Below the pieces are notes generated by a model that did not search any database, was not told the DNA's origin, and saw only the letters and a list, made by a program, of their open reading frames with translations. Shown in pieces: positions 2,986 through 44,100 of a stretch of 64,000 nt of DNA. The translations under genes were made by a program, and so were the position numbers. Position 1 is the first letter of the stretch, and every line of letters starts with the position of its first letter. The stretch comes from a virus (lineage: Duplodnaviria; Caudoviricetes). The stretch is taken from IMG/VR virus record IMGVR_UViG_3300025387_000009. The stretch is one strand, 5' to 3'.

Positions 2986-5460
2986 ATGGCAAAATTACTA
3001 GGAGGAACAACAATAGCTGGTACGCTGACGGCATCTGGAATCATTTCGGATGCAACTGGTAATTCGTCACAGTGGAATTCGGTTTATACAACAGTTAGTA
3101 CAACATCTGCATCTTGGGGCGGTTCTAGTATTTCTCCATCGGTTAGTGGTAATTGGCAGTCAACTTATGTCACCGTATCAAGTTTAAGCTCCACATGGAG
3201 TAGTATTTCATTTTTACAAGCTCTTTCGGCTAATAATCAATCAGTTTATAGTAATGTTAATTCAAATTCAGCAAACTGGAATTCAATTTCTTTCTTACAA
3301 GTAGCTAGTGCTAACAATGCATCAGTTTATAGTAACGTAAATTCTAATAGTGCAAATTGGAATTCTATTTCATTCTTGCAGTCTGCTAGTGCTAATAATG
3401 CATCAGTTTATAGTAATGTAAATTCAAATTCCGCCATCTGGAACAGTATATCTTTCTTACAAGCTCTTTCTGCTAATGATCAATCTGTTTACTCTTCATT
3501 TAATACACAGTCTGCAAACAATGCGTCAGTATTCAGCAACGTAAATTCTAGTTCAGCCAACTGGAACAGCATTTCATTCTTGCAATCCTTATCAGCTAAT
3601 GATAAATCGGTTTACAGTTCAGTAAACTCAAATTCAGCTAACTGGAATACAGTTTACAACAATGCAATTTATTCGGTTAGTGGTACACCAAATCAAATTT
3701 CAGCATCCGTTAATACGGTTGCGGGTAATAATGCAATAACATTAAGTTTACCATCATCGGTTAACATAACAACATTAAATGTTCTTAGTACGCTTAATAT
3801 TTCTGGAACTGCAAACTTTATTAATACAACAAATTTAAATGTTAGTAGTAATATTATTTATTTTGGAGAAGGTAACACTGGTAATGCATTAGATCTTGGT
3901 ATAGTAACTCACTTTATTGGTAATCTTAACAATGGTAGTTCAAAATATCAACATACTGGTTTAGTTAGACAAGCAGGGCAAAATTCACCAGCAGTTTGGA
4001 CGTTGTTCTCTGGTCTTACGAGTGAACCAGGCACGACAAATAGCGGTATCAATTGGGCAGATCCATATCTTCAAGTTGATACATTAAGCGCAAACGTATA
4101 TTCATCTGGTGGTAATAGTAACCAGTGGAATTCAAATTACACATCATTTAATGCTCAAAGCGCAAATAATGCTAGCGTTTATTCATCTTTTAATTCCCAA
4201 TCTGCTAATAATGCATCGGTTTATAGTTCAGTAAATTCTAATTCAGCAAATTGGAATTCAATATCGTTCTTACAAGCTCTTTCAACTAATGACCAATCTG
4301 TTTACAGTTCAGTAAACTCAAATTCGGCTAATTGGAGTTCAATATCTTTCTTACAAGCCTTATCAGCTAATGATAAATCTGTTTATTCTTCTTTTAATTC
4401 TCAAAGTGGAAACAATGCATCTGTTTATAGTTCTGTAAATTCGAATTCTGCCAATTGGAACTCTATATCTTTCTTACAAGCTGCATCGGCTAACAATTCT
4501 AGTGTTTATAGTTATGTAAATTCAAATTCCGCAACAAATAATCCTTCTTATAACACTTCAACATTTAGCAAACTATCTAGTCAAGCTTATTATGTTAATC
4601 CATCTAACTGTAATATAAATCCAACTTACGGATCAAATTCTGCATCTGGTTATTATAATACAATTCTTGGTGGAAACACTAATTGCATTAATTATAACAG
4701 TCCTTACAATTTAATCGGCGGAGGTTGTAACAATAGCATTTGCGGTCGCTACAATACAATTTTAAATGGATGTAATAACTTTTTAAATGGATTAAATTCA
4801 TTTATTTTGGGATCTAACATATCAGTTAGTGCAAATAATTTTACATTTGTTAATAATATTTCTTCTCAAGGATTAGTAGCTTCACCATCTGCTCAATTTG
4901 GTTCAACTTCTAATATTGCAAAGTTAAATTCTGCTCCATTAACTATTATATCTTCTGCTAGCGGATCTGTATTTAATCAAATACAAAATATTACGCCAAG
5001 TGTTAGTTCCAGTACGGATATTTCATTATATAATGATGATAATATTAATTATTTGGACTTAGGTATAGCTAGTACAAAATATAATGGTAATCTTTATAGC
5101 CCAACATTCAATGTAGTTAATGCTGGAGACTCGTATGTTTACTCAACGAGTGCAAATCTTGTATTAGGCGCAGCATCAACAACAAGTAGTTTAACGTTCT
5201 TTACTGGTGGTACATTAAGTGGCAATGAAAGAATGCGTATTAATCCCAATGGTAATGTTGGAATTGGTACGAGAACACCAAATACAAATTTAACAGTTGT
5301 TGGAAATATTAGTTCTACAAATACAATATATGCAAGTTCATTAAATATAACTTCTGCACCCACAACATTTGTAAATCCGGTAACAGCATCTGGAACATTT
5401 TTAATCGTGAATGTAAACGGAACAAATCAAGCAATTCAACTTTGGAACTATACATCTTAA
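2986..5460 (+). CDS. Fibre protein with two arrays of 27-aa NSNSANWNSISFLQ repeats
   Basis: 824 aa. About 8 repeat units, a short GGxxN array, TFVNNISSQG neck, and a GNVGIGTRTP module near the C-terminus. Confidence 0.75.
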   Translation: MAKLLGGTTIAGTLTASGIISDATGNSSQWNSVYTTVSTTSASWGGSSISPSVSGNWQSTYVTVSSLSSTWSSISFLQALSANNQSVYSNVNSNSANWNSISFLQVASANNASVYSNVNSNSANWNSISFLQSASANNASVYSNVNSNSAIWNSISFLQALSANDQSVYSSFNTQSANNASVFSNVNSSSANWNSISFLQSLSANDKSVYSSVNSNSANWNTVYNNAIYSVSGTPNQISASVNTVAGNNAITLSLPSSVNITTLNVLSTLNISGTANFINTTNLNVSSNIIYFGEGNTGNALDLGIVTHFIGNLNNGSSKYQHTGLVRQAGQNSPAVWTLFSGLTSEPGTTNSGINWADPYLQVDTLSANVYSSGGNSNQWNSNYTSFNAQSANNASVYSSFNSQSANNASVYSSVNSNSANWNSISFLQALSTNDQSVYSSVNSNSANWSSISFLQALSANDKSVYSSFNSQSGNNASVYSSVNSNSANWNSISFLQAASANNSSVYSYVNSNSATNNPSYNTSTFSKLSSQAYYVNPSNCNINPTYGSNSASGYYNTILGGNTNCINYNSPYNLIGGGCNNSICGRYNTILNGCNNFLNGLNSFILGSNISVSANNFTFVNNISSQGLVASPSAQFGSTSNIAKLNSAPLTIISSASGSVFNQIQNITPSVSSSTDISLYNDDNINYLDLGIASTKYNGNLYSPTFNVVNAGDSYVYSTSANLVLGAASTTSSLTFFTGGTLSGNERMRINPNGNVGIGTRTPNTNLTVVGNISSTNTIYASSLNITSAPTTFVNPVTASGTFLIVNVNGTNQAIQLWNYTS
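3402..3491 (+). repeat. 90-bp exact direct repeat, copy 1 (copy 2 at 43841-43930)
   Basis: Base-by-base comparison: atcagtttatagtaatgtaaattcaaattccgccatctgg...caatctgttta is identical at both loci. Confidence 0.9.
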
Positions 5461-5530
5461 AAATATAACTATATTACAAAGAAGATATGTGTCTACACAA
5501 TAACGTTTTTAAATACTAAATATATAATAT

Positions 5531-6291: not shown

Positions 6292-9200
6292 ATGTCGCTA
6301 CAGGTAGAAACAAATCCATTTCAGTATAACAGTACATTAAGTGTATTAAGTACGCTTAATGCTTCTTGCATTCAAGGTACAGGAAATCAAACTATATTTT
6401 ATGACGGTCTTTCGGCTAATTGTATCGGTAACGGACCGCAAACGCTTTCCATAAACTATTCCAATGGAACTTACATAAGTTGCGGACTGACCGTTGGTGG
6501 CACACTAACTGTCCCTAATGGGATCAATGCAACAACTGCACAGTGCGATAGTGGTGGTTGTTGCATTAACTGGTTTATAACTGGAGCTTATGGGTGTTAT
6601 GTAGCATGTGCAAACAATGCTAACGCTGCACATAATGGAGTTGTACAACCTGGCTTCGGTAGTTCTCCTTTCATTGGCGCAGGTAGTTGTAATACAGCAT
6701 CAGCAAATTATGCAATCGTAGTTGGCGGTCGTTCAAATACGGCTTCCGCTACATATTCATTCGTCGGTAGCGGTCAAAATAATAATTCAACTAATAGTAA
6801 ATCCACCATATCAGGTGGTTATGGTAATAATGCTACGGGAGATAGTTCGTTTATAGGCGGCGGTTGCGGTAACCAAGCAACAGAATTAAATTCTACTGTA
6901 TCAGGTGGATATAATAATCAAGCAAATGGAATTAGATCATTTGTTGGTGCGGGTTATAGCAATCTTTCTAATGGTCAAGATTCCACCGTTTCTGGTGGTT
7001 ATACCAACAAGGCATATGCTGCCTGTTCAACAATAGGTGGTGGGTGCAACAATCTTGTTAATACATATGGCGGTCTCAGTACAATATCAGGTGGATATGG
7101 TAACAGTGTAGGCAACGGCGGTTGCGATACTATCGCAGGTGGATCACATAATACAGCATGTCCAAATGGGGGCGGATCTTTTATTGGCGGTGGTCTAACC
7201 AATTCGATACTTCCTAATGGAGATCAAAGTGTTATCGTTGGTGGCGATGGCAACTTAATACAAGATTACAATGGATTTATTGGTGGCGGCGGTAGCAACG
7301 TTTTATGTGGCACTGTTACTTATGTATTTAATTGTTATTCAACGATTGGTGGTGGTTTCGGTAATGTTATATGCTCTGCATATTCCTTTATTGGTGGTGG
7401 TTTGAGTAACATTGCAGGTTGGGGAGGTATGAGACCAACCGGAGCAGACTATAATAGTTATGCAGTTGTTGGCGGAGGTCAAAGTAATATTGCTTGCGGA
7501 TATTATTCTGCAATAGTTGGTGGAAAATCAAACACCGCATCTGGTTATTATTCTTTTATTGCTGGTGGATCTGCCAATAATACAAACAGACTTAGTAATA
7601 CATTTATCCTAGGTTCAAACATAACAGCTAATATAGCAAACTATACATATGTAAATAATATTTCTTCGCTGGGTATAGTAGCTGATGCATCAGGAAACAG
7701 CAATAATTGGAACAGTGTATATAATACTTGGGGTAGTACTACAAATAATAGTTCCAACTGGAACAGTGTATATAATACTTGGGGTAGTACTACAAATAAT
7801 AGTTCCAACTGGAACAGTATTTCATTTTTACAAGCATTATCTGCTAATGATAAATCGGTTTATAGTTATGTAAATTCAAATTCCTCAAATTGGAATAGTA
7901 TATCCTTTTTACAATCAGCTAGTGCAAATAACGCATCTGTATACAGTAAGGTAAATTCCACTTCAGCTAACTGGAGTTCTGTCTACACTTTGGTTAATTC
8001 AACTACGGCAACCACATTTAAAGTTAGTGCATTGAGTGCACAAAGTACAATAATTGGTAGTGGATTTTGGGCAAATAGTACATATGCTGGAGTAAGTGGA
8101 GACGGTGTTATTATTGATTATATACAAGGTTCGCCAGGCATTGGTCGCATCAGCGTAGGTAATGCAACAGGCGCAGATAGTTTAGCTTTTTATAGTAACG
8201 GACCTGGATTTTCAAATCCAACCACAACAATGTATTTGTCATCCAATGGTTATGTTGGTATTAATACTTCTACACCAAATCAAGTATTAACAGTTTCTGG
8301 TACGATATCAGCATCTAATGCGGTTTATGCTAATGGTGTATTACTAGGAAGCGGCGGGAGTAGTTCCGTTACAGCGGTAAGTGGTACAGCAAATCAAATA
8401 GCAGCTAGCTATTCTTCTGGTACTGTTACGTTAAGCCTACCATCACCTGTATGTACACCAAGTAGTATATGTTTGGCATCAGGATTTCTTGTTTCAAGAG
8501 GAAATTATATTGGTGGTAATAATACAGCTTTAGGTGTTAATGCATTGAGAGTTAATACTTCATGTGGTATAAATAATATTGCTTTAGGCGATACAACTTT
8601 ATATTCAAATACAAGTGGTTCTTGTAATACAGCATCTGGTTATAATGCGCTCTATTATAATGTTTGCGGTAGCAATAACAATGCTATTGGTTGGAGATCT
8701 CTTTTTAATAATACATGCGGAAATGCTAATGTAGCTATAGGCCCTGCAGCCTCGTATTGTAACACTACCGGATGCAATAACGTATCAATTGGTTCATATT
8801 CAGGTTATGCTAATAGACTAGGTATACACAATATTGCAATTGGAAATAATGCGCTTTATAGCTCTAATGCTACAGGGTCGACAGTTAGTAACTATAATGT
8901 CGCTATTGGTAAATCAGTAATGACTCGAAACAGCACGGGTAGTTTTAATGTTAATATTGGTACAGCATCTAACTATAATAATACTGTAGGCAGCTGCAAT
9001 ACAAGTATTGGTACAAATACTCTTTATAATAATGTATCAGGTTGCAATAATTCAGCATTTGGTTTTAGAGCTTTGTGCTCAAATATAGGTGGTTGCAGCA
9101 ATCTCACTTTTGGAGATTTTGCATTAGCTGCCAATACATTTGGAAATTTTAATATTGCGTTGGGATCAAATGCGGGTTGTAATCTCACTACAGGAAATAA

Positions 9201-9831
9201 TAACACAATAATAGGTGCTAATATGACGGGCACTGCTGGTTTAGCAAATACATTTATCGCTGGTGCGGGTGGTACTGAACGTTTTAGAGTGGATCAAAAT
9301 GGTAATTTTGGTATTAATACCACAATACCTAATAATACATTAACAGTTAATGGTAGCATTAGCGCAACAGGAAGTCTTATTGCAAATGGTGCTTATACTG
9401 CCACCGCATATCTTTCGGCTAACGTAACAGCACCACAAAATAATGATCTTTGGTTGCCATTATCACCAAAAAATGATCCTAATAATTGGATTTCAAATAT
9501 TGGTACGTATCCAGCACTATCTGGTAAGATAACCCCAACCGTGCCAGGCTACTATTTTATAAATTATCAAATAGCATGGAATGGGACTACAGGTACTGGA
9601 CAAAATAATGCTCAAATTCGCATAAATGGTACTAATACAAAATCTCTTGTACAAATGCCATTATTTACTGGTTCTGGTGGTGCTCAAACTCAAACGGCAA
9701 CTTCTATAATTTATCTTAATGGTGTTTCAGATTATATTGACGTTTCTGGCTATAGCAGTGCAACAAGTCAAACTATAGTCGGTACAACTGACGGTAATTG
9801 GACAAAAGTTGAGATATATAGAATCAACTAA
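6292..9831 (+). CDS. Long fibre/adhesin with 15-aa GGxxN and 17-aa NTAxGxxAL beta-roll arrays
   Basis: 1179 aa. YadA-head-like repeats, TYVNNISSLG neck, SANW repeats, two G(Y/N)(V/F)GINT modules, C-terminal beta-sandwich-like domain. Confidence 0.75.
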   Translation: MSLQVETNPFQYNSTLSVLSTLNASCIQGTGNQTIFYDGLSANCIGNGPQTLSINYSNGTYISCGLTVGGTLTVPNGINATTAQCDSGGCCINWFITGAYGCYVACANNANAAHNGVVQPGFGSSPFIGAGSCNTASANYAIVVGGRSNTASATYSFVGSGQNNNSTNSKSTISGGYGNNATGDSSFIGGGCGNQATELNSTVSGGYNNQANGIRSFVGAGYSNLSNGQDSTVSGGYTNKAYAACSTIGGGCNNLVNTYGGLSTISGGYGNSVGNGGCDTIAGGSHNTACPNGGGSFIGGGLTNSILPNGDQSVIVGGDGNLIQDYNGFIGGGGSNVLCGTVTYVFNCYSTIGGGFGNVICSAYSFIGGGLSNIAGWGGMRPTGADYNSYAVVGGGQSNIACGYYSAIVGGKSNTASGYYSFIAGGSANNTNRLSNTFILGSNITANIANYTYVNNISSLGIVADASGNSNNWNSVYNTWGSTTNNSSNWNSVYNTWGSTTNNSSNWNSISFLQALSANDKSVYSYVNSNSSNWNSISFLQSASANNASVYSKVNSTSANWSSVYTLVNSTTATTFKVSALSAQSTIIGSGFWANSTYAGVSGDGVIIDYIQGSPGIGRISVGNATGADSLAFYSNGPGFSNPTTTMYLSSNGYVGINTSTPNQVLTVSGTISASNAVYANGVLLGSGGSSSVTAVSGTANQIAASYSSGTVTLSLPSPVCTPSSICLASGFLVSRGNYIGGNNTALGVNALRVNTSCGINNIALGDTTLYSNTSGSCNTASGYNALYYNVCGSNNNAIGWRSLFNNTCGNANVAIGPAASYCNTTGCNNVSIGSYSGYANRLGIHNIAIGNNALYSSNATGSTVSNYNVAIGKSVMTRNSTGSFNVNIGTASNYNNTVGSCNTSIGTNTLYNNVSGCNNSAFGFRALCSNIGGCSNLTFGDFALAANTFGNFNIALGSNAGCNLTTGNNNTIIGANMTGTAGLANTFIAGAGGTERFRVDQNGNFGINTTIPNNTLTVNGSISATGSLIANGAYTATAYLSANVTAPQNNDLWLPLSPKNDPNNWISNIGTYPALSGKITPTVPGYYFINYQIAWNGTTGTGQNNAQIRINGTNTKSLVQMPLFTGSGGAQTQTATSIIYLNGVSDYIDVSGYSSATSQTIVGTTDGNWTKVEIYRIN
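7708..7818 (+). repeat. Perfect 51-bp tandem duplication (17 aa, WNSVYNTWGSTTNNSSN, two copies plus a partial third)
   Basis: tggaacagtgtatataatacttggggtagtactacaaataatagttccaac at 7708 and 7759; partial third copy from 7810. Confidence 0.9.
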
Positions 9832-9836: not shown

Positions 9837-11993
9837 ATGTCAAATATTTTAACAACGCAAGCTACTAAAACTTTTCCAACAGGTGCAATAGCCTATTGGA
9901 GTTTAGGTAATGATGGTTCAGGTAATTTAAATTTAACAGATTTAACAGGCAACGGAAATACCTTAACAAACAATGGAGGTGTTACGTTAGGCACTGGACT
10001 TTTAAGCGGTTGCGCCGTTTTTAACCCAAACAATAACACTTATTTATACATATCTCCTAATAACGCTTTTAATTTTTCTGGAGATTTTTCCATCCAAGCG
10101 TGGATTAATTCGGCAGGTCAAACTAGATCATATCCTGCAATATTTTCTTCTCAGTATGGTTGGGTAACAAATAGTGTTAAGTTAGATTTTTTTTATGCAA
10201 ATAATCAAGCAATTGGTTATGAACACAATGGCACGATTGTTAACGGAATTGTTAATTCCAGCAACGCAACAGTTGGCGTATGGTATCATGCAGTTATTGT
10301 AAAACAAAACAATTTAGCAACTCTTTATATCAATAATGTAGCAGTTGCTTCACAAAACGATAATATTTTAGCTGCATTCAATAATAATAATAGTGGTACT
10401 GTTATAGGAGGAGGTGATTGGGATGGATATAATAGTTATTTTAATGGTAGTTTGTGCGAAATAGGTGTTTGGAATAGAGCATTATCCCCAAATGAAATCT
10501 CAATTCTTTACAACCGTGGCAATGCTTTTTCTTATAATAGCACTATCAGCCTACAAACTAACCCACAATTTATAACTAGTAACCCACGATTTTTAACAAA
10601 TCAATTATCTGCGGTTTCAACACAGCCATCATTATTAATGGTTATGAATAATAATTTTAATGATAGTTCAACTTATAATAATAGTATTACAATTAATACA
10701 GGAACCCCGATAATAAAATCGTTTAATGATTTATCTAATAAAACATATAGCGCAGGATATTTTAATGGTTCAAGCTCATTGGTATTAAATGATGCCAGTG
10801 AATTTAATTTAGCTAGTGTACCATCAACAATTGAAGCATGGTTTTATGCAAAATCACTATATACAAATGGGAATGCAGCGAGTACGATTATATCTAAAGA
10901 TACATATGGTTCAAATTTTTCTTGGTGTATAGCAATTTATAGTGATGCAATATTTGTGGGAACCGATAATATTAATGGTAATTGGAATTTTACAAGTACA
11001 GGTCTTAATATTACAACAAACACTTGGCATCATGTTGCATTTTGTTCTGATGGTTCTAATCAGTATATGTATCTTGATGGCAATTTGGTCGGTAGTGTTA
11101 ATTTTCCATTAACAGATGCTTCTTCAAATATATCTATTGGTTGCATGAGTTATAACAATCTTGGTAATTATTTTAATGGTTATATCCAAGATATAAGAGT
11201 TACACAAGGAACGATGATATATCATTCTAATTTCACACCATTGCCACCAATTAGTAACTTGCCGCCAATAACTAATAATGCTCAAATTATAACAACAACT
11301 GTTTCCCCTCAACTTCCCACTGGCAATATTACTCTTTTGCTAGATGCAACAAATACATCTAGCTATTCTGGTAGCGGTGGAGTATGGTATGATGTGAGCG
11401 GAAATGGTAATAATTTTAATATTAATTCTGCTGCGTTTAATTCCGGTAGCAAATATATGGACTTCAAAGGAAGTTATGGAATGGCAAAAAATTCTTCTGA
11501 CATAAATCTGTCTGGAGATGTTACGTATATTTGTGCAACCAGAATTTTAAATTCGGCAGGAGATTGGAGAACACTAACTCGTGCATATGGATCGCCTGGT
11601 AATCATCAGGTAATTGTACAATCTGGTGGATGGGATATAGGAACATACATAGGTAACGGTTCTGGTTTTAGAGATACTGGATATTCTCAACAATCTCTCC
11701 CTGGCTATGCATCTAATTCCTTTGATATAATGTGTTGGAGATGGACAGATGGTGATAATCCTACATATAATTTAAATGTTAATGGTGTAAATGTAGGATC
11801 TATAACAGATTCTGTTGCTAGGTATGTAATAGGATTTGGTTCTATTGGCGGATATCACAATGGAAACACAGACCCTAATAGCGGATCTCAATATTGGGGA
11901 GATATAAAATATTTTATAGTTTACAACAGAAGACTAACGGATGTAGAGGTACGATTTGCTTATTCTTATTTAAAATCTTATTTAGGAATCTAA
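9837..11993 (+). CDS. Triple LamG/concanavalin A-like lectin-domain virion protein
   Basis: 718 aa. Three jelly-roll signatures: AYWSLG...WYHAVIV...FNGSLCEIGVWNRALS; TIEAWFY...WHHVAFC...FNGYIQDIRVT; LLLDATN...VWYDVSGN...FIVYNRRLT. Confidence 0.8.
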   Translation: MSNILTTQATKTFPTGAIAYWSLGNDGSGNLNLTDLTGNGNTLTNNGGVTLGTGLLSGCAVFNPNNNTYLYISPNNAFNFSGDFSIQAWINSAGQTRSYPAIFSSQYGWVTNSVKLDFFYANNQAIGYEHNGTIVNGIVNSSNATVGVWYHAVIVKQNNLATLYINNVAVASQNDNILAAFNNNNSGTVIGGGDWDGYNSYFNGSLCEIGVWNRALSPNEISILYNRGNAFSYNSTISLQTNPQFITSNPRFLTNQLSAVSTQPSLLMVMNNNFNDSSTYNNSITINTGTPIIKSFNDLSNKTYSAGYFNGSSSLVLNDASEFNLASVPSTIEAWFYAKSLYTNGNAASTIISKDTYGSNFSWCIAIYSDAIFVGTDNINGNWNFTSTGLNITTNTWHHVAFCSDGSNQYMYLDGNLVGSVNFPLTDASSNISIGCMSYNNLGNYFNGYIQDIRVTQGTMIYHSNFTPLPPISNLPPITNNAQIITTTVSPQLPTGNITLLLDATNTSSYSGSGGVWYDVSGNGNNFNINSAAFNSGSKYMDFKGSYGMAKNSSDINLSGDVTYICATRILNSAGDWRTLTRAYGSPGNHQVIVQSGGWDIGTYIGNGSGFRDTGYSQQSLPGYASNSFDIMCWRWTDGDNPTYNLNVNGVNVGSITDSVARYVIGFGSIGGYHNGNTDPNSGSQYWGDIKYFIVYNRRLTDVEVRFAYSYLKSYLGI

Positions 11994-13833: not shown

Positions 13834-15696
13834 ATGCCTGACGTATTACCTACACCGAATAGACAGCCAGATAACGGTAGAAATTTCATATCAAATATTC
13901 TTTCTAGATTGCCTTATATCCAAGACGCAGTGGATGCTGATATTGGAAATCCAAGATATGAACTTTTCGACCGCTTATCAAAAAGACATGAATATCGTGT
14001 CATGCAGCAGTCCGTTATTACCGGTCCCGCAATGCGCCAGAATACGGATCAGTACGGACCTGGCTCCTTTACCTCTGATCACGCATATCACAAATACATT
14101 TATGCCAGTGTTGACGTTGATAAAATCAGAAGAATTGCAGAGTATCGCAGAATGGGATCTTATGCAGAAATCGCAGACTGTTTAGATGAAATTTGTGATG
14201 AATTTCTAAATAAGGATGATGAGGATAAATTTTTAAGAATTGGATTTTCAACATTTGGTAAATTAGACTCAAATGAGAGAAGTGAAATTGAAAAAGAGTT
14301 TTACAAATTCATTCAAGTTTTTGACTTGGAGCACAAAGGTTGGGGATATTGTAGACAGCTTTTAATCGAAGGTGAAATTTTCTTTGAAAACGTTGTTCAC
14401 GAAAGAAAAAGAGAATTAGGTATTATTGGTGTGTTGAATATACCAGGTGAATTGATCAATCCAGTTTACGATAATGTTCAAAATAACGTAATTGAAAACT
14501 TCATTTTCCAAAAACCAATTAGCTTACAACAACACGCAAGTAGTCCAAATAGCCCATCTGCTCCACCTTCATCACAGAATAATTCCAATTCCTTGCAACA
14601 ACAATTAATCACATTCCAAGGAAATCAGATTACCTATATTAATTCTGGCATGTGGAATGAAGACATGTCAATTAAGGTTCCGTTCCTTGAAAATGCTCGT
14701 CGTTCATATAAGCAGGTTTCATTACTTGAAGATGCGGTAGTCATTTATCGAATGGTTCGTGCACCAGAACGTCTTAAATTTAAAATTGATGTTGGTAATA
14801 TGCCACCCGCTAAAGCAGAGGCATATTTAAAACAACTCATGCAAGCATATTGGTCTAAAAAGACATATGATGCGCAATCTGGAAAGGGTGCTGGTAACAT
14901 TTACGATCCACAATCTATGTTGGATGCTTTTTGGTTTGCAAAGCGTCAAGGTGAAGCAGGAAGTGATGTAGAACTTATGCAAGGTGGAGCAAATCTTGGT
15001 AAGATTGAAGATTTGACCTATTTTGTCAATAAACTTTATAAGAGCCTCAAGGTTCCTTTAACTCGTATGAACCCAGACGAGGGATATAAAGATGGTGCAG
15101 AAATTTTAAGAGAAGAATTACGTTTTGCAAAATTTGTTGTTCGTATTCAAAATCAATTTGCAACAGGTCTTAAAGAAACATTCATTACTCATTTAAAACT
15201 CCGTGGATGGTGGAAAGAATACGGAATGCATGAATCGTATTTCGATATTCACTTTAATCCTCCTTCCAATTATTTTGCAATTAGAAAGAATCAAGAATTT
15301 GAATTAAAGTATAATAATTTCAATAACATGTCTCAGAATGAATCAATTTCTAAGACATTTGCCCAGCGTCACTATCTCGGATTAAACGATGCCAAGATTT
15401 CCGAAAACATGGAATGGCTCAGAAAGGATGCAGCACTCAAATGGGAGTTGGATCAGATTGCTCAGACCGGACCCAACTGGCGTGAACACATTCAAGCGGC
15501 AGAGCAAGCCGCTGGTGCACTTGGAGCAGGTGGCGCAGCCGCACCAGCAGCGGGTGGAGGCGGTGGAGCACCAACGGCAGCTGAAATCCCAGAATTCGGT
15601 GGTGGTGCTACAGCAGAAACGACACAAGCACCGGAAGCAGCTACAACGGAAGTTCCTGAAGCTGGCGCAGAAGCTACGGAAACACCAGCAGCATAA
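13834..15696 (+). CDS. gp20: T4-like portal vertex protein
   Basis: LEDAVVIYRMVRAPERLKFKIDVGNMPPAKAEAYL, SMLDAFWFAKRQG, EILREELRFAKFV. Confidence 0.95.
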   Translation: MPDVLPTPNRQPDNGRNFISNILSRLPYIQDAVDADIGNPRYELFDRLSKRHEYRVMQQSVITGPAMRQNTDQYGPGSFTSDHAYHKYIYASVDVDKIRRIAEYRRMGSYAEIADCLDEICDEFLNKDDEDKFLRIGFSTFGKLDSNERSEIEKEFYKFIQVFDLEHKGWGYCRQLLIEGEIFFENVVHERKRELGIIGVLNIPGELINPVYDNVQNNVIENFIFQKPISLQQHASSPNSPSAPPSSQNNSNSLQQQLITFQGNQITYINSGMWNEDMSIKVPFLENARRSYKQVSLLEDAVVIYRMVRAPERLKFKIDVGNMPPAKAEAYLKQLMQAYWSKKTYDAQSGKGAGNIYDPQSMLDAFWFAKRQGEAGSDVELMQGGANLGKIEDLTYFVNKLYKSLKVPLTRMNPDEGYKDGAEILREELRFAKFVVRIQNQFATGLKETFITHLKLRGWWKEYGMHESYFDIHFNPPSNYFAIRKNQEFELKYNNFNNMSQNESISKTFAQRHYLGLNDAKISENMEWLRKDAALKWELDQIAQTGPNWREHIQAAEQAAGALGAGGAAAPAAGGGGGAPTAAEIPEFGGGATAETTQAPEAATTEVPEAGAEATETPAA

Positions 15697-15699
15697 TGT

Positions 15700-16167
15700 A
15701 TGGATCATTTCATAATAAATGCCAGACCACAACCATTTAATGTAGAGCCTTATGCATTTACACTACATCCATATGCATCTAGTATTCCCCCGATATTATT
15801 AATAGGTAGATCATTTATTAATGTATCAAATGTGTATTTGAGTTCTGTAGACGCAAATATGTTTTCGCTTAGTACAGAATATATAAATCCATTTTATAAT
15901 ATTAAAAATCTTTCAGCTAATAATATAGGATTTAGTGGTGTTGATGTAACGCAATATGCTGATTTTATATCGGGACAATATATAAATTTAAATTTGCCTG
16001 ATATTTTTCATGATTCAGGGTATTTTGATGTTATTGTCCAAAATGAAGCAGGATTCGGTATATTAACTCAAGACAGTATAGTTCCATTTGTGAGTTCATG
16101 GAAGGGTGCTATAAACATACAAAAACCTTGTGTTTCAGGAATTAAAGTAAATGTTAATATAAATTAA
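15700..16167 (+). CDS. Hypothetical protein, possible Ig/IPT-like structural protein
   Basis: 155 aa. LIGRSFINVSNVYLS...GYFDVIVQNEAGFG resembles IPT/TIG strands. Confidence 0.55.
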   Translation: MDHFIINARPQPFNVEPYAFTLHPYASSIPPILLIGRSFINVSNVYLSSVDANMFSLSTEYINPFYNIKNLSANNIGFSGVDVTQYADFISGQYINLNLPDIFHDSGYFDVIVQNEAGFGILTQDSIVPFVSSWKGAINIQKPCVSGIKVNVNIN

Positions 16168-16180
16168 TAAGTAATAATAT

Positions 16181-16417
16181 ATGGATATCATAATTCAAAC
16201 AACCCAAACCATAAAATTAGCAGATCCAATTGTAATAGAATTCGTAAGAGATTTATTTGTAGAGAAAAAAATCGTTGCAAAAATTAAAGGGTTACCTAAA
16301 CAAATTGTTCTTTGGGATGGTGATGAGCAATATGCCGCAGCTGGCAATTGGACAAACGATACCGCAATATCACAAGCATTAGTCGTTCTAGCTCTTTCCT
16401 CGATTCCTTGGATTTAA
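16181..16417 (+). CDS. Small hypothetical protein
   Basis: 78 aa, preceded by TAAGTA; contains IVLWDGDEQYAAAGNWT. Confidence 0.6.
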   Translation: MDIIIQTTQTIKLADPIVIEFVRDLFVEKKIVAKIKGLPKQIVLWDGDEQYAAAGNWTNDTAISQALVVLALSSIPWI

Positions 16418-16444
16418 TAAAATTATTTAGGTAAGTATTCATTA

Positions 16445-17230
16445 ATGAAGAACTATACCTTTAATTGGGAAGTCCAGACTCTTATTGAACAATTTTGTCA
16501 GGCTTTCAATGATGTTATCATTAAACGTTATGATAACACAGAAACTTTGGTTGCTCCAACAAGTGGCGACAAAGTTTTGTTTGTATATTCACCAAAACAA
16601 AGAGTATTCAGTAATTTAAATAGCCCAGCGGCTGGTGGCTTAACGGTTCCTGTTATTGCTATAAATCTTTCTTCTATTTCCAGAGATCAAAGTAGAGTTG
16701 TTAATAAGATTGATGGATTTAAAGTTGAATACGATTCAACTGACGGAAGTGGTGAATATATATTACCAGTTTTACAACCTGTTCCTGTAAACATAGCAGT
16801 TGAGATGACAATTATAACACGTTATCAATCTGATATGGATCAAATTTTAACAAACTTTATTCCTTATTGCGATCCATATATTGTAGTTTCTTGGAAGTTA
16901 CCAAATCTTAAAAATTCATCTATTCCATATGAAATAAGAAGTGAAGTTTTATGGAGTGGTAATGTGAACTTACAATACCCAAACGACCTTACTGGCACTC
17001 AACCATATAGAATTTCTGCTACAACTTCATTTACTATCAAAGGATGGATGTTTAAAGCCTTTAATAATGTTATTAATAAAATTTATACGATTGATTCTAA
17101 ATTTTTAACTATGGGTTCCGATGGAACAGCGGAAGCAGATACGCCAGTTCCACCTGCATCCATATTACAAGATTTTTCTGATTTTTATTCTGATTATATT
17201 TCTCCGAATATTATCAATACAATACCATAA
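16445..17230 (+). CDS. gp15: Tail sheath stabilizer/tail terminator
   Basis: FNDVIIKRYD...VYSPKQRVF...PVPVNIAVEMTIITRYQSDMDQILTNFIPY matches the T4-like gp15 pattern. Confidence 0.85.
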   Translation: MKNYTFNWEVQTLIEQFCQAFNDVIIKRYDNTETLVAPTSGDKVLFVYSPKQRVFSNLNSPAAGGLTVPVIAINLSSISRDQSRVVNKIDGFKVEYDSTDGSGEYILPVLQPVPVNIAVEMTIITRYQSDMDQILTNFIPYCDPYIVVSWKLPNLKNSSIPYEIRSEVLWSGNVNLQYPNDLTGTQPYRISATTSFTIKGWMFKAFNNVINKIYTIDSKFLTMGSDGTAEADTPVPPASILQDFSDFYSDYISPNIINTIP

Positions 17231-17239
17231 GTATTCAAA

Positions 17240-18202
17240 ATGGCTAATTCAGTACTACCAAACAGATTCCACGGATCAATGACCTTTTCACCAAAGGTTA
17301 CCACCTATGATTTATTAGCGCAAAGAATCAGAAGGGGATTAGGCGAACCGCTAATTCAAATCGAATTATCAAGTGAGCAAATCTATGAGAATATTGATAT
17401 TGCATGTGAATGGTTTACAAAGTTTTCTGGTACAACAGAAGAATATCTAATTTTTAGATCAGATTTATATACCCAAGGCGTAGGCTTACATATCGATAGG
17501 TTAATTAACATAACACCTGATATGTATAATTCTACAACCTTTAATCCACCAGCTAGTACAACAGGTTCAGGTTATTATGGTGGTACTGCTTCACAATATT
17601 ACGGAACAACATTTACTCCGCCGCCTAGTGCATTCCCAGGTTCTATGGGTTGGGATTATGACATGAATCAATATAGAAAAGTTATTGATGTTTTTTCATA
17701 CGAAGAGGGAAATAATTCTGGTGTTAATACACTTTTCACAATTGAAAATACAATTGCTCAACAAGCATACTTTGGTCAACTTCTTGGTAATGTAGGATAT
17801 GATTTAGTTACTTGGCAAGCACTTAAATCTTGGATTGATACAAGAGAAAAAGTCCTCGCTCTTAAACCTTATCTTAGATTTTATCCTGAGACTCAAATTT
17901 TAAAAATTATACCTGAACCAAATCCATTCTTATCCGCTTATTTTGGGTTGATTGGTTGCAGAGTACAAAAAGCAATTAAAGATATCGTAAGCCAATTATG
18001 GGTTTATAGATACACGATGGCTCTTTGCAAAATTACTATGGGTCACACCAGAGGTAAATACGCTGGAACAAATTTATTCGGAAACCAAACCGTAAACTAT
18101 CAAGATATTCTCCGTCAAGGCGAAGCAGAAAAAGCAGAATTGGAAAAGGAAATCATGACCGATATGGTTGATAGAGATCCTATTTCGTTCTATCTTGGAT
18201 AA
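17240..18202 (+). CDS. gp13: Neck/head-tail adaptor protein
   Basis: RIRRGLGEPLIQIELSSEQIYENIDIACEWF and WVYRYTMALCK...GKYAG...GEAEKAELEKEI...PISFYLG. Confidence 0.85.
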   Translation: MANSVLPNRFHGSMTFSPKVTTYDLLAQRIRRGLGEPLIQIELSSEQIYENIDIACEWFTKFSGTTEEYLIFRSDLYTQGVGLHIDRLINITPDMYNSTTFNPPASTTGSGYYGGTASQYYGTTFTPPPSAFPGSMGWDYDMNQYRKVIDVFSYEEGNNSGVNTLFTIENTIAQQAYFGQLLGNVGYDLVTWQALKSWIDTREKVLALKPYLRFYPETQILKIIPEPNPFLSAYFGLIGCRVQKAIKDIVSQLWVYRYTMALCKITMGHTRGKYAGTNLFGNQTVNYQDILRQGEAEKAELEKEIMTDMVDRDPISFYLG

Positions 18203-18216
18203 TCTTATTGATTATC

Positions 18217-18259
18217 TTTGTGGCAATAAATGAACTAACAATTCATTTATTATCACAAA
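18217..18259. promoter_or_regulatory. Long AT-rich inverted repeat between gp13 and gp4
   Basis: tttgtg-gc-aataaatgaa [ctaacaa] ttcatttatt-at-cacaaa: 10-bp perfect inner stem plus 6-bp outer stem. Confidence 0.6.
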
Positions 18260-18270
18260 AATAAACAACT

Positions 18271-18717
18271 ATGAAAAAAAACCGCAACTACACACAGGGA
18301 ATTTATCAACCGCTAAATCCCGAAAAATACAAAGGAAGTATTCCTATAATATATAGATCAAAACTAGAACTTATTAGTTTTAGATATCTGGATAAAAATC
18401 CTAATATATTAACATGGGGAAGCGAATCCGTTATAATCCCATATCAATCACCAAAAGACGGCAAAGTACATAGATACTTTGTTGATTTGGTTGCCTCATT
18501 AAAAGATAGCACTGGCAAGATGCAGAAACTTTTAATTGAAGTTAAACCCGAAAAACAAACGAAACCACCTACGATTACATCGAAGAAAAAGCAATCTACT
18601 ATGCTTTATGAAAAAGTTACATGGGCAGTAAATCAAGCAAAATGGGATGCGGCTCGTCAATGGTGTAAAAAAAATGGATATACTTTTTTAATTCTTAATG
18701 AAAAACATCTTAACTAG
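18271..18717 (+). CDS. gp4: Head completion nuclease (TnsA-like PD-(D/E)xK)
   Basis: YRSKLEL...WGSESVIIPY.SP.DGKVHRYFVD...LIEVKP...VNQAKWDAA. Confidence 0.9.
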   Translation: MKKNRNYTQGIYQPLNPEKYKGSIPIIYRSKLELISFRYLDKNPNILTWGSESVIIPYQSPKDGKVHRYFVDLVASLKDSTGKMQKLLIEVKPEKQTKPPTITSKKKQSTMLYEKVTWAVNQAKWDAARQWCKKNGYTFLILNEKHLN

Positions 18718-18725
18718 TATAAATA
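18718..18725 (+). promoter_or_regulatory. T4-type late promoter TATAAATA upstream of gp21
   Basis: Exact TATAAATA; a second TAAGTA at 18732-18737 lies 8 nt before the ATG. Confidence 0.55.
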
Positions 18726-18745
18726 GAAGACTAAGTAATTAATAT

Positions 18746-19414
18746 ATGAGTAACGTTTATAATCTTTTGGTCGAGCAACCTACCTACGAATTAAAGTATT
18801 TGGTTGAAGAACAAAATCGTAATTCGCCTTCAAACATGTACATTAAAGGACCATTCTTAATGGCTAATGAAGCAAATCGCAATAAGCGTGTTTATCCATT
18901 AGAAGAAATGGTTCGTGAAGTTGCTCGTTATGATAAGGAAATGATTAAGGGTAATCGTGCAACGGGTGAACTTAATCACCCAACATCACCAGAAATTAAT
19001 TTAGAAAGAGCTTGCCATATCGTCACCGAATTAAAACAAGATGGCAATATTTTTGAAGGTAAATCAAAGATCCTTTCAACTCCTGTTGGACAAGTTGTTC
19101 GTTCGTTAATTTTAGATGGCGTTAAACTTGGTGTATCTTCTCGTGCTCTTGGTCGTGTCGATCAAGAAAACGGAATTGGCAAAGTTTCAGATTTTCGTTT
19201 AGTAGCAATTGACGTTGTTGCTGATCCATCAGTTCCTACAGCCTTTGTTAATGGTATTTTAGAATCCAAGCAATGGGTATTAAAAGACAATGGAGAGCTT
19301 GAAGCACTTTATGACAATTTCCAAAAAAATATTTCAACTCTTCCATTGAAAAATAAAGATGCTTATTTACGTGAACAATTTGTTTCATTTATTAATGCAT
19401 TAAAAAGCTATTAA
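18746..19414 (+). CDS. gp21: Prohead core protease
   Basis: NRNKRVYP, GELNHP, GVSSRALG, DVVADPS..AFVNGILE. Confidence 0.95.
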   Translation: MSNVYNLLVEQPTYELKYLVEEQNRNSPSNMYIKGPFLMANEANRNKRVYPLEEMVREVARYDKEMIKGNRATGELNHPTSPEINLERACHIVTELKQDGNIFEGKSKILSTPVGQVVRSLILDGVKLGVSSRALGRVDQENGIGKVSDFRLVAIDVVADPSVPTAFVNGILESKQWVLKDNGELEALYDNFQKNISTLPLKNKDAYLREQFVSFINALKSY

Positions 19415-20675: not shown

Positions 20676-20686
20676 TAAACAAACAA

Positions 20687-41145: not shown

Positions 41146-41159
41146 GGTAAATATACTAT

Positions 41160-44100
41160 ATGGCTGATAATGTTACTTCAGATAGAGTAAAACTAATTGT
41201 TGATTTAAATCAAGCAAACTCTCCTTTAGCAGGAAATGAAATTTTTGCCTTGGTTCAAGGTGGCATTACTAAAAAAGCAGCCATTTCAGATATTGGTTAT
41301 TATACTGAAACGCTTGATTATGCCAGTTGGGTGCAGAGCAATTCTTCAAGTTTTCTAACAATAGAGTCATTATCTGCTAATTGGAATTCCGTATTTAATT
41401 CGGTTTTTGCGACTTCTGGGAACTGGAATTCTGTATTCAATTCTGTTACCGCAACATCTGGTAATTGGAATTCTGTTTTTGCTACCGTTTGTGCTTTAAG
41501 TGGCAACTGGAACTCTGTTTATAGTGCATTTAATAACCAATCTGCATATAACACATCAGTTTATAATACTACAAATACTTTAAGTTCAAATTGGAGTTCT
41601 GTTTATAGTACATTTAATAATCAATCTGGATATGATGTTTCAGTTTATAATACTACTAAATCTTTAAGTGGTAATTGGAGTTCTGTTTACAGTACATTTA
41701 ATAATCAATCAGCTAATAATTCTAGTGTTTTTAATTATGTAAATTCAAATAGTGCAAATTGGAACAATATTAATTTCTTTGAAACTCAATCAGCTAATAA
41801 TTTATCTGTTTTTAGTTCAGTAAATTCCAATAGTGCAAACTGGAATAACATAAATTTCTTTGAGTCCCAATCAGCCAACAATGCTAGTGTTTTCAGTTCT
41901 GTAAATTCTAATTCAGCTAATTGGAATAACATAAATTTCTTTGAAACCCAATCAGCTAATAATTTATCTGTTTTTAGTTCAGTAAATTCCAATAGTGCAA
42001 ACTGGAATAATATAAATTTCTTTGAATCTCAGTCAGCTAACAATGCTAGTGTTTTCAGTTCGGTAAACTCAAATAGTGCTAATTGGAATTCAATATCCTT
42101 TTTACAAACTGCTAGTGCAAATAATGCTTCTGTTTACTCTTCGGTAAATTCAAATAGTGCCAACTGGAACAGTATATCTTTCTTGCAGTCTGCTAGTGCA
42201 AATAACGCATCAGTTTATAGCAATGTAAATTCTAATAGTTCTAACTGGAATAACATAAATTTCTTTGAATCTCAGTCAGCTAATAATTTATCTGTTTTTA
42301 GTTATGTAAATTCTAATTCTGCTAATTGGAATAATATTAATTTGTTTGAATCTCAGTCCGCTAACAATGCTAGTGTTTTCAGTTCTGTAAATTCAAATAG
42401 TGCTAATTGGAATAGTATATCTTTCTTACAATCATTATCAGCTAACGATCAATCGGTTTACAGTAGCGTGAGTTCTAATTCTGCTAACTGGAATAGCATA
42501 TCTTTCTTACAGGCTTTATCTGCTAATGATAAATCAGTTTACAGTTATGTAAACTCTAATAGTGCTAATTGGAATAGTATATCTTTCTTACAATCGGCTA
42601 GTGCAAATAATGCATCCGTATACAGTTCAGTAAATTCAAATTCAGCTAACTGGAATAGCATATCTTTCTTGCAGTCAGCTAGTGCTAATAATGCTAGCGT
42701 TTTTAGTTCAGTAAATTCAAATAGTGCTAATTGGTCTTCTATATCTTTCTTGCAAGGGTTATCTGCAAATAATCAATCGGTTTACAGTAATGTAAATTCA
42801 AATTCTGCCAATTGGAACAATATTAATTTCTTTGAACCTCAATCAGCAAACAACTTATCAGTTTATAGCCAAGTATCCTTACTTAGTAGTGGTTGGAGTG
42901 GTGGTGGTTCTGTTGCTACTACAGTTCAAACACAATCTGCTAACAATGCATCAGTTTACTCTTCAGTAAATTCAAACAGTGCTAATTGGAATACTATATC
43001 AGTTTTTCAAAATCAATCAGCAAATAATGCATCAGTTTTCTCTACTGTAAAGGCTCAATCATCAACAATTACTTGGGTAAACAATAATAGTGCATATTTA
43101 GTTGTAAATAATTTTCCTGCTGGTCAAACGCAATATTTATACGGTAATATAACAGTTTATGGTTCTATTTCGGCACAGGGTGGTATATCGAACCAAACAA
43201 ATAACGTTGGAACAACCAGTGCATTTAACGTTGTTAATAATAATGCTAATGTATATGCGGTAAATGTTCAACAAGCATCTGGCAGCAGTTTAGGTATAGC
43301 AACATTCTTTGACGGTTATCCTGCTCTATATGTGGGTAAAACAACAAACGCAGATGGTAGTGTTTATAATGGCGGTGTTGTTGGTATTAAAACATCAACA
43401 CCAAATAAAACATTAACTGTTTTAGGTGACATTTCAGCAAGCAACCAGATATGGGCAACAGCATTTAATGGCAATCTTAATGGCAATGCAGCAACAGTAA
43501 CAAATGGTGTCTATACAAATGGTTCTTATTCTTATCCATCTTGGATCACTAATATAGCAGATTCTATTATCACAGGTAACAATAGAAATAGTTGGGATAG
43601 TGCTTATTCGCAGGTTAATAATTTAAGTTCTAATTGGAATACAGGAAGTGGATTCCAAAGCCAATCAGCTAATAATGCATCCGTTTACACTAACGTAAAC
43701 TCCAATAGTGCTAACTGGAGTTCAATATCTTTCTTACAAGGTTTATCTGCTAATGATCAATCAGTTTATAGTAGTGTTAACTCAAATTCTGCTAATTGGA
43801 ACAGTATATCTTTCTTACAGGGGTTATCTGCTAATGATAAATCAGTTTATAGTAATGTAAATTCAAATTCCGCCATCTGGAACAGTATATCTTTCTTACA
43901 AGCTCTTTCTGCTAATGATCAATCTGTTTATAGTTCAGTAAATTCAAATTCGGCAAACTGGTCTTCCATATCCTTCTTACAATCAGCTAGTGCTAATAAT
44001 GCTTCTGTATTCAGCAATGTAAATTCAAATTCTGCTAACTGGAGTTCGGTTTACACACAAGTTAATAGTTTAAGTTCTGGTTGGAATAGCGCAGCTTCAA

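What the first reader, a model, noticed from the sequence alone, without database searches (positions are those of the whole stretch)
3402..43930. Exact 90-bp DNA identity between two fibre genes 40.4 kb apart: recent inter-gene exchange of repeat modules
Seen: 3402-3491 (gene 2986..5460) and 43841-43930 (gene 41160..44717) are identical base for base. Both carry the rare SAIW variant, which occurs only at these two places among the repeat units. Most neighbouring copies of the repeat differ at many synonymous sites. Inference: segments were recently moved between fibre genes by recombination or gene conversion. The shared repeat may act as a recombinase-independent cassette system that swaps N-terminal anchors and C-terminal tips or changes fibre length. 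No recombinase or reverse transcriptase is in the window.
Basis: partly seen in the sequence, partly recalled or inferred. Interest (0 to 1): 0.78.

Follow-up and report, generated by a model that had tools for sequence, protein, structure and literature searches.

The report
Gene-conversion patch between two phage fibre genes
Two tail-fibre genes of an uncultured freshwater T4-like phage really do share a perfect 90-base stretch, most likely a small patch copied from one gene into the other by ordinary homologous recombination between their shared repeats; this is a clean example of a known way in which phage fibres evolve, not a new swapping system.

Summary
Bases 3402-3491 (gene 2986..5460, "B") and 43841-43930 (gene 41160..44717, "D") are identical. 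This is the longest exact repeat in the window; the next longest are 62, 62, 60 and 59 bp, all within one gene. The in-register flanks are only 70% identical. A runs test gives about 1e-8 and a codon-usage null gives 2e-11. The SAIW variant occurs only at these two sites. Both copies recur letter for letter in separate MEGAHIT k141 contigs, so mis-assembly is very unlikely.

The window is the structural module of a very divergent T4-like myovirus. An 81-bp (27-aa) Ser/Asn repeat is shared by four fibre-like genes. The first repeat array of B is a patchwork whose nearest relatives lie in genes A and D.

Best reading: a short, non-reciprocal gene-conversion patch, probably from D into B. The two copies are direct repeats with portal, capsid and baseplate genes between them, so a simple crossover would be lethal. 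The "recombinase-independent cassette system" is not supported, because T4-like phages carry UvsX and the closest relative encodes a RecA-family protein. Other assemblies differ from the window by exactly one repeat unit in D and one in C. B's relatives keep its tip but have an unrelated shaft.

This is a new member of a known kind (tail-fibre mosaicism). An earlier first-reader note of this scan, on an overlapping window of this genome, had already noted the shared fibre-repeat kit.

The parts
3402..3491 (+). Copy of the 90-bp tract in fibre gene B, the probable recipient. It encodes (A)SVYSNVNSNSAIWNSISFLQALSANDQSVY.
   Evidence: It recurs in ENA contig k141_140985, which is 100% identical to window 1-7767.
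43841..43930 (+). Copy of the 90-bp tract in fibre gene D, the probable donor.
   Evidence: It recurs in ENA contigs k141_158619 and k141_18826. Apart from the B copy, its nearest relative is the adjacent upstream unit of D (73/87), against 63 and 67 of 87 for B's two preceding units in the same array.
2986..5460 (+). Gene B, an 824-aa fibre-like protein. It has a short N-terminus, repeat array 1, a central domain, repeat array 2, a short Cys/Gly/Asn beta-helix-like stretch and a conserved C-terminal 270 aa.
41160..44717 (+). Gene D, a 1185-aa fibre-like protein with about 22 of the 27-aa units in two blocks around a central domain. Its C-terminus matches phrog_8309.
92..1912 (+). Gene A, a 606-aa fibre-like protein that carries the same repeat modules.
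6292..9831 (+). Gene C, a 1179-aa protein that carries the same repeat modules. It matches PHROGs annotated as tail spike and virion structural protein.
3118..3249 (+). Block in gene B that is 92% identical (122/132) to gene A 404-535, with sharp edges and unrelated flanks. This is an older, second inter-gene exchange.
3220..3400 (+). Part of B's array 1 whose nearest relatives (85-95% in 45-bp windows) lie in D's last arrays, mostly at 44172-44424, rather than in B.
   Evidence: Exact 29-35 bp matches pair 3304, 3358 and 3397 with 44196, 44412 and 44208.
44274..44354 (+). One 81-bp repeat unit of D that is absent from both ENA k141 contigs, where D is 1158 aa instead of 1185 aa. It lies between 62-bp exact direct repeats at 44274 and 44355.
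7708..7818 (+). Perfect 51-bp tandem repeat (2.2 copies) in gene C. ENA contig k141_140985 has one unit fewer, giving 1162 aa instead of 1179 aa.
4723..5455 (+). 3' part of gene B that is 82-85% identical in DNA to the syntenic gene of a related lake phage. Homology starts abruptly inside the gene, which marks a mosaic breakpoint.
13834..27084 (+). Essential genes between the two copies: portal, gp15-like, prohead protease, scaffold, major capsid gp23, clamp loader gp44, gp25 and gp6-like baseplate wedge.

Best explanation
The 90-bp identity is the footprint of a short, non-reciprocal homologous-recombination event (ectopic gene conversion or a double-crossover patch). It occurred between paralogous 81-bp shaft repeats of two tail-fibre genes of an uncultured freshwater T4-like myovirus. 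One repeat unit plus 9 bp, carrying a private Asn-to-Ile change, was copied from one gene into the in-register position of the other, probably from D into B. The surrounding, much older repeat copies were left at about 70% identity. The likely agent (inferred, not shown) is the phage's own recombination-dependent replication machinery: UvsX/UvsY, gp46/47 and gp49. Strand invasion at a mis-paired repeat followed by a short stretch of copying would give exactly such a patch. The event is one of several. B's first array is a patchwork of segments whose closest relatives are in gene A and in two different arrays of D, so the 27-aa repeat family evolves partly in concert across at least four genes. 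The same repeats probably also allow unit gain and loss by unequal pairing. The patch itself is probably neutral for function, because it exchanges one structurally equivalent shaft unit for another.
For: Shown. (1) The identity is exact over 90 bp, is the longest in the window, and cannot be extended.
(2) Flanks are 70% identical and the tract 100%; 0 of 100,000 permutations reach it, the analytic estimate is about 1e-8, and the codon-usage null gives 2e-11.
(3) The derived SAIW (AAC to ATC) is found only in these two units out of 33.
(4) Both copies occur with their own flanks in MEGAHIT k141 contigs from two ENA analyses. A 141-mer spans the tract plus 51 bp of flank, so real reads carry each copy in its own context.
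(5) B's array 1 is a patchwork: 3115-3219 is nearest gene A (about 93%), 3220-3400 is nearest D's last arrays (mostly 44172-44424), and 3402-3491 equals D 43841.
(6) Direction: apart from the B copy, the tract's closest relative is the unit just upstream of it in D (73/87). The 23-mer TGGAACAGTATATCTTTCTTACA occurs in both of these D units, whereas B's two preceding units in the same array score 63 and 67 of 87.
(7) Essential head and baseplate genes lie between the direct repeats.
(8) The closest IMG/VR relative has a RecA-family ORF scoring 87.8 bits against a 27-bit cut-off.
From the literature: uvsX, uvsY and gp46/47 are core genes of T4-like phages (PMC2993671). Fibre genes exchange fragments between loci at conserved motifs (PMC1079782, and PMC3157838 citing Tetart 1996 and 1998).
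Against: No allele of B without the tract (a pre-conversion state) was found. The nearest B orthologues have a different shaft and no D orthologue exceeds 50% identity, so the event cannot be polarised or dated by comparison. The D-to-B direction rests on a modest margin (73 against 63-70 of 87). The ENA assemblies may derive from the same or sister samples, so they are independent as assemblies but not necessarily as populations. Recombination genes in this very genome are known to me only from earlier unchecked notes.
Confidence: 0.8

Rival explanations
1. The shared repeats form a dedicated cassette or diversification system. Frequent, possibly programmed exchange among fibre genes would swap N-terminal anchors and C-terminal tips or tune fibre length within a population, as antigenic variation by gene conversion does.
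For: Four genes in the window share the module, and an earlier unchecked note reports a fifth just upstream. There are several inter-gene tracts of different ages. Separate assemblies differ by single repeat units in D and C while showing almost no point differences over about 30 kb. B orthologues have the same tip on a different shaft.
Against: Apart from the one-unit difference in D's last array, no sequence variation was seen in or around the repeat arrays between assemblies, and the tract and the rest of the arrays are letter-identical. No B/D chimera was seen. The repeats are direct and bracket essential genes, so a crossover between them is lethal. No site-specific recombinase, reverse transcriptase or silent donor cassettes were found. 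The closest relative carrying the repeat has inter-gene exact matches of at most 38 bp. General homologous recombination suffices to explain the data.
Confidence: 0.08
2. The tract is an assembly or polishing artefact. Reads from one repeat copy were used to build or correct the other, or the repeat was mis-threaded.
For: Repeats are the classic place for such errors. The tract is shorter than a typical read. Assemblies disagree on the unit number in D and C. Logan contigs break inside D's repeats.
Against: Both copies, each with its own unique flanks, occur in MEGAHIT contigs named k141 from two ENA analyses. They are 100% identical to the window over 7.7 kb and over about 13.4 kb up to the one-unit indel in D. 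At k greater than 90 the graph has no ambiguity at the tract. B's downstream part and neighbours are syntenic with relatives.
Confidence: 0.04
3. The 90 bases are kept identical by selection on the nucleic acid itself, for example an embedded promoter, RNA structure or binding site needed in both genes, and not by recent copying.
For: Exact conservation at all synonymous sites is what such selection would give.
Against: The RNA fold is no better than shuffled sequence, with z = -0.15. The other 31 units of the same repeat vary freely at the same positions. The tract has no exact match in IMG/VR. The tract is one repeat period plus 9 bp, in register.
Confidence: 0.02

Closest known systems
Mosaic tail-fibre evolution by homologous recombination at conserved motifs in T-even phages. 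Examples are the gp37 His-boxes and the gp38 glycine-rich motifs (Tetart et al. 1996 and 1998, as cited in PMC3157838 and PMC1079782). Sandmeier 1994 and Haggard-Ljungquist 1992 are recalled from my own knowledge.
   Same: Conserved, repeated sequence inside fibre genes serves as the site of homologous exchange. The result is a chimeric fibre gene. The machinery is the phage's general recombination system. Here too a mosaic breakpoint lies inside gene B.
   Different: The known cases are mostly exchanges between co-infecting phages at the same locus, and they swap specificity segments. Here the exchange is between two different genes of one genome, 40 kb apart, and it moved a shaft unit rather than an adhesin segment. 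The repeat has no Pfam family and no homology to gp37 or gp38 motifs.
Ectopic (interlocus) gene conversion and concerted evolution of repeat-bearing paralogues, as detected by Sawyer's runs test (GENECONV)
   Same: The signature is the same: an identity tract far longer than the flank divergence allows, sharp borders, and a shared derived substitution.
   Different: This is a general evolutionary process, not a named phage system. I found no report of it between fibre genes of one T4-like genome in the papers searched, although four keyword searches cannot show that none exists.
Repeat-mediated duplication and loss of tail-fibre domains. Examples are the Xanthomonas phages OP1, Xp10 and Xop411 (PMC2248197) and T4 host-range extension by duplication in the adhesin (Tetart 1996, cited there).
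   Same: Short direct repeats inside fibre genes go with gain or loss of whole units. Here an 81-bp unit sits between 62-bp exact repeats in D, and gene C has a 51-bp perfect tandem.
   Different: Those cases have a demonstrated effect on host range. Here the unit differences are between assemblies and may be artefacts, and no phenotype is known.
Invertible fibre cassettes (Mu G segment with Gin, P1 C segment with Cin, p15B Min) and diversity-generating retroelements
   Same: These are the known dedicated systems that change phage fibre tips. They are what a 'cassette system' would resemble.
   Different: They need inverted crossover sites plus a serine invertase, or a reverse transcriptase plus a template/variable repeat pair with adenine-specific differences. 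Here the repeats are direct and identical, lie in shaft units, and no such enzyme is in the window.

Membership tests
Ectopic gene conversion between paralogous repeats | An identity tract significantly longer than expected from the divergence of the aligned flanks | tested here: met
   A 90-bp run in a 294-column alignment with 61 mismatches. None of 100,000 permutations reached it (largest 57), and the analytic estimate is about 1e-8.
Ectopic gene conversion between paralogous repeats | Identity at synonymous sites that differ among the other copies, plus a shared derived change | tested here: met
   Codon identity given the same amino acid is 0.53 among the 33 units. The codon-usage null gives P = 2e-11. 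SAIW (ATC) occurs only in these two units.
Ectopic gene conversion between paralogous repeats | Both copies exist in real molecules and are not an assembly artefact | tested here: met
   Each copy with its own flanks is present in MEGAHIT k141 contigs of ENA analyses ERZ27271998 and ERZ27271999. Reads themselves could not be inspected.
Ectopic gene conversion between paralogous repeats | A pre-conversion allele or an unchanged donor seen in relatives, giving polarity and date | tested here: inconclusive
   No close B or D orthologue carries the same array. Polarity rests only on nearest-neighbour units, 73/87 in D against 63-70/87 in B.
Ectopic gene conversion between paralogous repeats | A homologous-recombination machinery is available | tested here: inconclusive
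   A RecA-family ORF is present in the closest IMG/VR relative, and uvsX and gp46/47 are core T4-like genes (PMC2993671). This genome's own copies are reported only by earlier unchecked notes, and no whole genome is held.
Invertible fibre-gene cassette (Gin/Cin/Min type) | Inverted crossover sites flanking alternative fibre C-termini | tested here: not met
   The two copies are on the same strand in direct orientation, 40,439 bp apart, inside shaft repeats.
Invertible fibre-gene cassette (Gin/Cin/Min type) | An adjacent site-specific invertase | tested here: not met
   No resolvase or invertase family was found among the 4 fibre genes and 29 other ORFs of 150 aa or more. ORFs below 150 aa were not scanned.
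Diversity-generating retroelement | A reverse transcriptase next to a template/variable repeat pair that differs at adenines | tested here: not met
   No RT family was found in the window. The pair has 0 differences. Both copies are coding shaft units, not a C-terminal lectin-fold variable region.
T-even gp37/gp38 adhesin modules | Sequence homology to gp37 or gp38 (glycine-rich motifs, His-boxes) | tested here: not met
   There is no meaningful Pfam hit for genes A-D (the one match above a cut-off, a DEAH11 RNA-binding domain on D, has no matched stretch and looks compositional) and no PHROG hit for the repeat region. There is no PDB sequence match.

The most novel reading that the evidence does not exclude
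The 27-aa Ser/Asn module is a shared recombination scaffold for a whole set of fibre genes (at least four here, reportedly five). Recurrent conversion driven by the phage's own recombinase, together with unequal pairing among these genes, would continually re-assort shaft segments and change fibre length within natural populations. That would give a lytic phage a built-in, enzyme-non-specific analogue of antigenic variation by gene conversion. The 90-bp tract would be a snapshot of that process.
Probability: 0.1. Interest if true: 0.6.

Novelty: new member of a known kind. Interest (0 to 1): 0.3.

Why it matters
Tail fibres set phage host range, and their mosaic make-up is usually reconstructed from distant comparisons. 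Here one exchange is caught fresh, with base-level borders, between two different fibre genes of a single genome from an uncultured lineage of freshwater T4-like phages. This shows that an undescribed 27-aa shaft repeat is evolving partly in concert across several genes. It also marks exact repeats that are hot spots for unit gain and loss, which matters for assembling such genomes and reading their strain variation. It does not reveal a new mechanism.

Tried and rejected
1. Whole-genome k-mer map and read mapping could not be done.
2. Near-identical relatives in the INPHARED phage records: none for either gene. The major capsid protein is only 33% identical to cyanomyophage gp23.
3. An exact-match scan of IMG/VR with the tract found nothing.
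4. I searched for a B or D orthologue lacking the tract. B's closest relatives (76-83% identical in the tip) have a completely different shaft. D's central domain has no relative above 50% identity. The protein-pattern scans of IMG/VR and of metagenomes returned only distant repeat-bearing genes.
5. I asked whether long inter-gene identities are common in related loci. Within-array exact repeats of 50-150 bp are common, but matches more than 2.5 kb apart between fibre genes reach only 59 bp. The one 98-bp distant match (L026) is a duplicated gene that by eye looks like a TnpB-type transposase (not confirmed by a family search) and is unrelated to fibres. In the closest repeat-bearing relative the best inter-gene match is 38 bp.
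6. A functional RNA or DNA element in the tract is unlikely, since the fold z-score is -0.15.
7. Fold of the repeat: a single-sequence AlphaFold2 model of D 1000-1185 is beta-rich but of low confidence overall (pLDDT 61). It has no PDB match with E of 0.001 or better. The ESM Atlas gave only weak viral 'hypothetical' clusters. No claim about the fold is made.
8. Invertible cassette and DGR readings are rejected (see the membership test).

Full report
**Observation.**
- Reading both places and an exact k-mer map of the window show that 3402-3491 and 43841-43930 are identical over exactly 90 bp. The bases on either side differ.
- It is the longest exact repeat in the 64 kb. The next are 62 and 62 bp (within gene 41160..44717), 60 bp (a perfect 51-bp tandem in gene 6292..9831) and 59 bp (again within 41160..44717). 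All others are 38 bp or less.
- Both copies are on the + strand, in frame and at the same codon phase. They encode SVYSNVNSNSAIWNSISFLQALSANDQSV(Y).
- SAIW occurs nowhere else in any frame. Its Ile codon ATC is one change from AAC, which 14 of the 33 units use at that position.

**What the window is.**
- PHROG and Pfam scans identify a T4-type portal, gp15-like protein, prohead protease, scaffold, gp23 major capsid protein, gp44 clamp loader, gp25 and a gp6-like wedge protein. They lie among very large Ser/Asn/Gly-rich proteins.
- The capsid protein is only about 33% identical to cyanomyophage gp23. The related contigs recovered come from environmental metagenomes, which by their JGI sample identifiers I take to be lakes (from memory, not checked). 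Base composition is 33% G+C.
- This is therefore the structural module of a deeply divergent, uncultured T4-like myovirus, freshwater by that inference and by earlier notes of this scan.
- Four genes carry the same Ser/Asn repeat, whose commonest unit is 27 aa or 81 bp (SANNASVYSNVNSNSANWNSISFLQ). They are A 92..1912, B 2986..5460, C 6292..9831 and D 41160..44717.
- The repeat has no Pfam family, no informative PHROG and no relative of solved structure. That these are fibre or spike proteins is inferred from their place in the virion module, their composition and the tail-spike and virion-protein PHROG matches of gene C.

**Is the match more than chance?**
- Among 33 in-register units the mean identity is 67%. 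Codons for identical amino acids are the same only 53% of the time. Apart from each other, the tract's best match is 73 of 87 bases.
- In the ungapped alignment 3226-3519 against 43665-43958 there are 61 mismatches in 294 columns. The 204 columns outside the tract are 70% identical.
- None of 100,000 random placements of the mismatches gave a clean run of 90 (largest 57). The analytic estimate is about 1e-8.
- With the codon usage of the four genes, two independent codings of this peptide would be identical with probability 2e-11. Even after allowing for 528 unit pairs, this is far beyond chance.

**Is it an assembly artefact?**
- Reads could not be examined, but look-ups by exact protein found other assemblies of essentially the same phage.
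- ENA contig k141_140985 (analysis ERZ27271999) equals window 1-7767 base for base, including the copy in B.
- ENA contigs k141_158619 (ERZ27271998, 132 kb) and k141_18826 (ERZ27271999) equal window 30952-44273 base for base, including the copy in D. They differ from the window in D only by lacking the unit at 44274-44354.
- The 'k141' names are MEGAHIT's default for a final k of 141. A 141-mer covers the tract plus 51 bases of unique flank, so each copy must exist in reads in its own context.
- Logan contigs of SRR5260925 are 100% identical to the window and break at the 62-bp exact repeats of D, as short-k assemblies do at real repeats.
- I therefore put an artefact at about 4%. The caveat is that the ENA assemblies may come from the same or sister samples.

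**Anatomy of the exchange.**
- The borders are abrupt. Upstream the two genes stay in register at 70-80% identity. Downstream B continues with a 14-aa insert unit, and register is lost.
- The tract is one repeat period plus 9 bp.
- A painting of B's first array with 45-bp windows shows a patchwork. Segment 3115-3219 is closest to gene A (about 93%; the block 3118-3249 against 404-535 is 122/132 with unrelated flanks). Segment 3220-3400 is closest to D's last arrays, mostly 44172-44424. Segment 3402-3491 is identical to D 43841-43930.
- In contrast, B's second array (4204-4488) groups with itself.
- So there were several transfers of different ages, and the 90-bp tract is the youngest.
- Direction: apart from the B copy, the tract's closest relative is the unit immediately upstream of it in D (73/87). 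The two D units share the 23-mer TGGAACAGTATATCTTTCTTACA. B's two preceding units in the same array score 63 and 67, and its best unit anywhere, in array 2, scores 70.
- I take D as the donor with roughly two-to-one odds.

**Mechanism.**
- The copies are direct repeats 40,439 bp apart. Between them lie the portal, prohead protease, scaffold, capsid, gp25 and gp6-like genes.
- A single reciprocal crossover would delete these genes, or duplicate 40 kb in the partner molecule. Only a non-reciprocal patch is viable.
- This follows from established knowledge of homologous recombination and headful packaging in T4-type phages. It is an inference, not a test.
- The absence of a recombinase or reverse transcriptase from the window is true for the 33 ORFs of 150 aa or more that I scanned, but it is not informative.
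- uvsX, uvsY and gp46/47 belong to the core gene set of T4-like phages (PMC2993671).
- The closest IMG/VR relative that carries the repeat (IMGVR_UViG_3300032236_001503) has a RecA-family ORF of 383 aa at 87.8 bits.
- Earlier notes of this scan place uvsX and gp46/47 elsewhere in this genome (I did not check them).
- From memory, T4 recombination needs roughly 50 bp of homology (Singer et al. 1982). If so, the new 90-bp identity would itself now be long enough to serve as a substrate.

**The wider claims.**
- *Length change.* The ENA contigs lack exactly one 81-bp unit of D (44274-44354, bracketed by 62-bp exact repeats; D is 1158 aa against 1185 aa). They also lack one 51-bp unit of the perfect tandem in C (1162 aa against 1179 aa). 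Otherwise they differ from the window by a 3-bp indel and at most one base in about 30 kb. Unit differences are thus nearly the only differences seen. Without reads I cannot tell real polymorphism from collapse by an assembler.
- *Swapping of ends.* The closest relatives of B (76-83% identical over the matched part of the C-terminal region, whose last ~270 aa are highly conserved, and syntenic next to the same sulfotransferase gene) have an unrelated Cys/Gly/Asn-rich shaft in place of B's first 550 aa. DNA homology starts abruptly at 4723 inside the gene. So shafts and tips are re-assorted over evolutionary time, as in other phages. No B/D chimera was seen, however, and outside that one-unit difference the repeat arrays are letter-identical between assemblies, so nothing points to a dedicated or frequent system.

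**Comparison with what is known.**
- Swapping of fragments between fibre loci, and exchange at conserved motifs, are long-known properties of phage fibre genes (PMC1079782; PMC3157838 citing Tetart 1996 and 1998; PMC2993671). Repeat-associated duplication and loss of fibre domains is also known (PMC2248197).
- The present case works like these. It differs in being an interlocus conversion within one genome, in a shaft repeat that is not in Pfam, in an uncultured lineage.
- It fails the defining features of invertible fibre cassettes, since the repeats are direct and there is no invertase. It also fails those of diversity-generating retroelements, since there is no reverse transcriptase and there are no adenine-specific differences.
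- Four literature searches found no description of this repeat or of conversion between fibre genes of one T4-like genome, but four keyword searches cannot show that none exists.

**Verdict.**
The core inference of a recent inter-gene exchange is supported. The cassette-system idea is not supported.
- This is a tidy new example of a known kind of event, of moderate-to-low interest (0.3).
- An earlier first-reader note on an overlapping window (e1-5363570) had already described the four fibre genes as sharing a recombining kit of modules. My analysis agrees with it for the part inside this window.

Noticed in passing
window 44274-44354 and 7708-7818: Other assemblies of the same phage differ from the window by exactly one repeat unit in gene D (81 bp, between 62-bp exact repeats) and one in gene C (51-bp perfect tandem). 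They show almost no point differences over about 30 kb. This is either fast unit gain and loss or assembler collapse.
   Followed up: partly
window 50180 (gene 48056..50887): ENA contig k141_18826 carries a 3-bp insertion (GTA) here, giving 944 aa against 943 aa. It is the only other difference found in 44355-54044.
   Followed up: no
window 4723-5455; L099 11579-12626: The C-terminal 270 aa of gene B are 76-83% identical to proteins of related lake phages whose shaft is an unrelated Cys-rich Gly/Asn repeat. DNA homology begins abruptly inside the gene. Genes A and C and gene 9837..11993 have no DNA counterpart in that syntenic relative.
   Followed up: partly
window 1700-1760, 4860-4900, 7640-7700 (approximate): Genes A, B and C share a junction motif, N(T/S)FILG...AN(F/Y)T(F/Y)VNNISS(Q/L)G. 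It ends the Gly/Asn-rich stretch and, in A and C, precedes the GNS..WNS repeats. It may be a conserved structural joint and a possible recombination linker.
   Followed up: no
L040-L098 and L004-L033: The SANW-type Ser/Asn fibre repeat is widespread in metagenomic phage contigs, which I take to be mostly from lakes (59 metagenome and 30 IMG/VR loci matched gene B). It has no Pfam family, and exact intragenic repeats of 50-150 bp are common in these genes.
   Followed up: partly
L026 654-751 and 3893-3990: A 98-bp exact repeat in an unrelated IMG/VR contig lies in two near-identical copies of a gene that by eye resembles a TnpB-type transposase (no family search was run). It has nothing to do with fibres.
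   Followed up: yes
window 5531-6289, 11999-12823, 12823-13761: Sulfotransferase-family genes sit among the fibre genes and are conserved next to gene B's orthologue in relatives.
   Followed up: no
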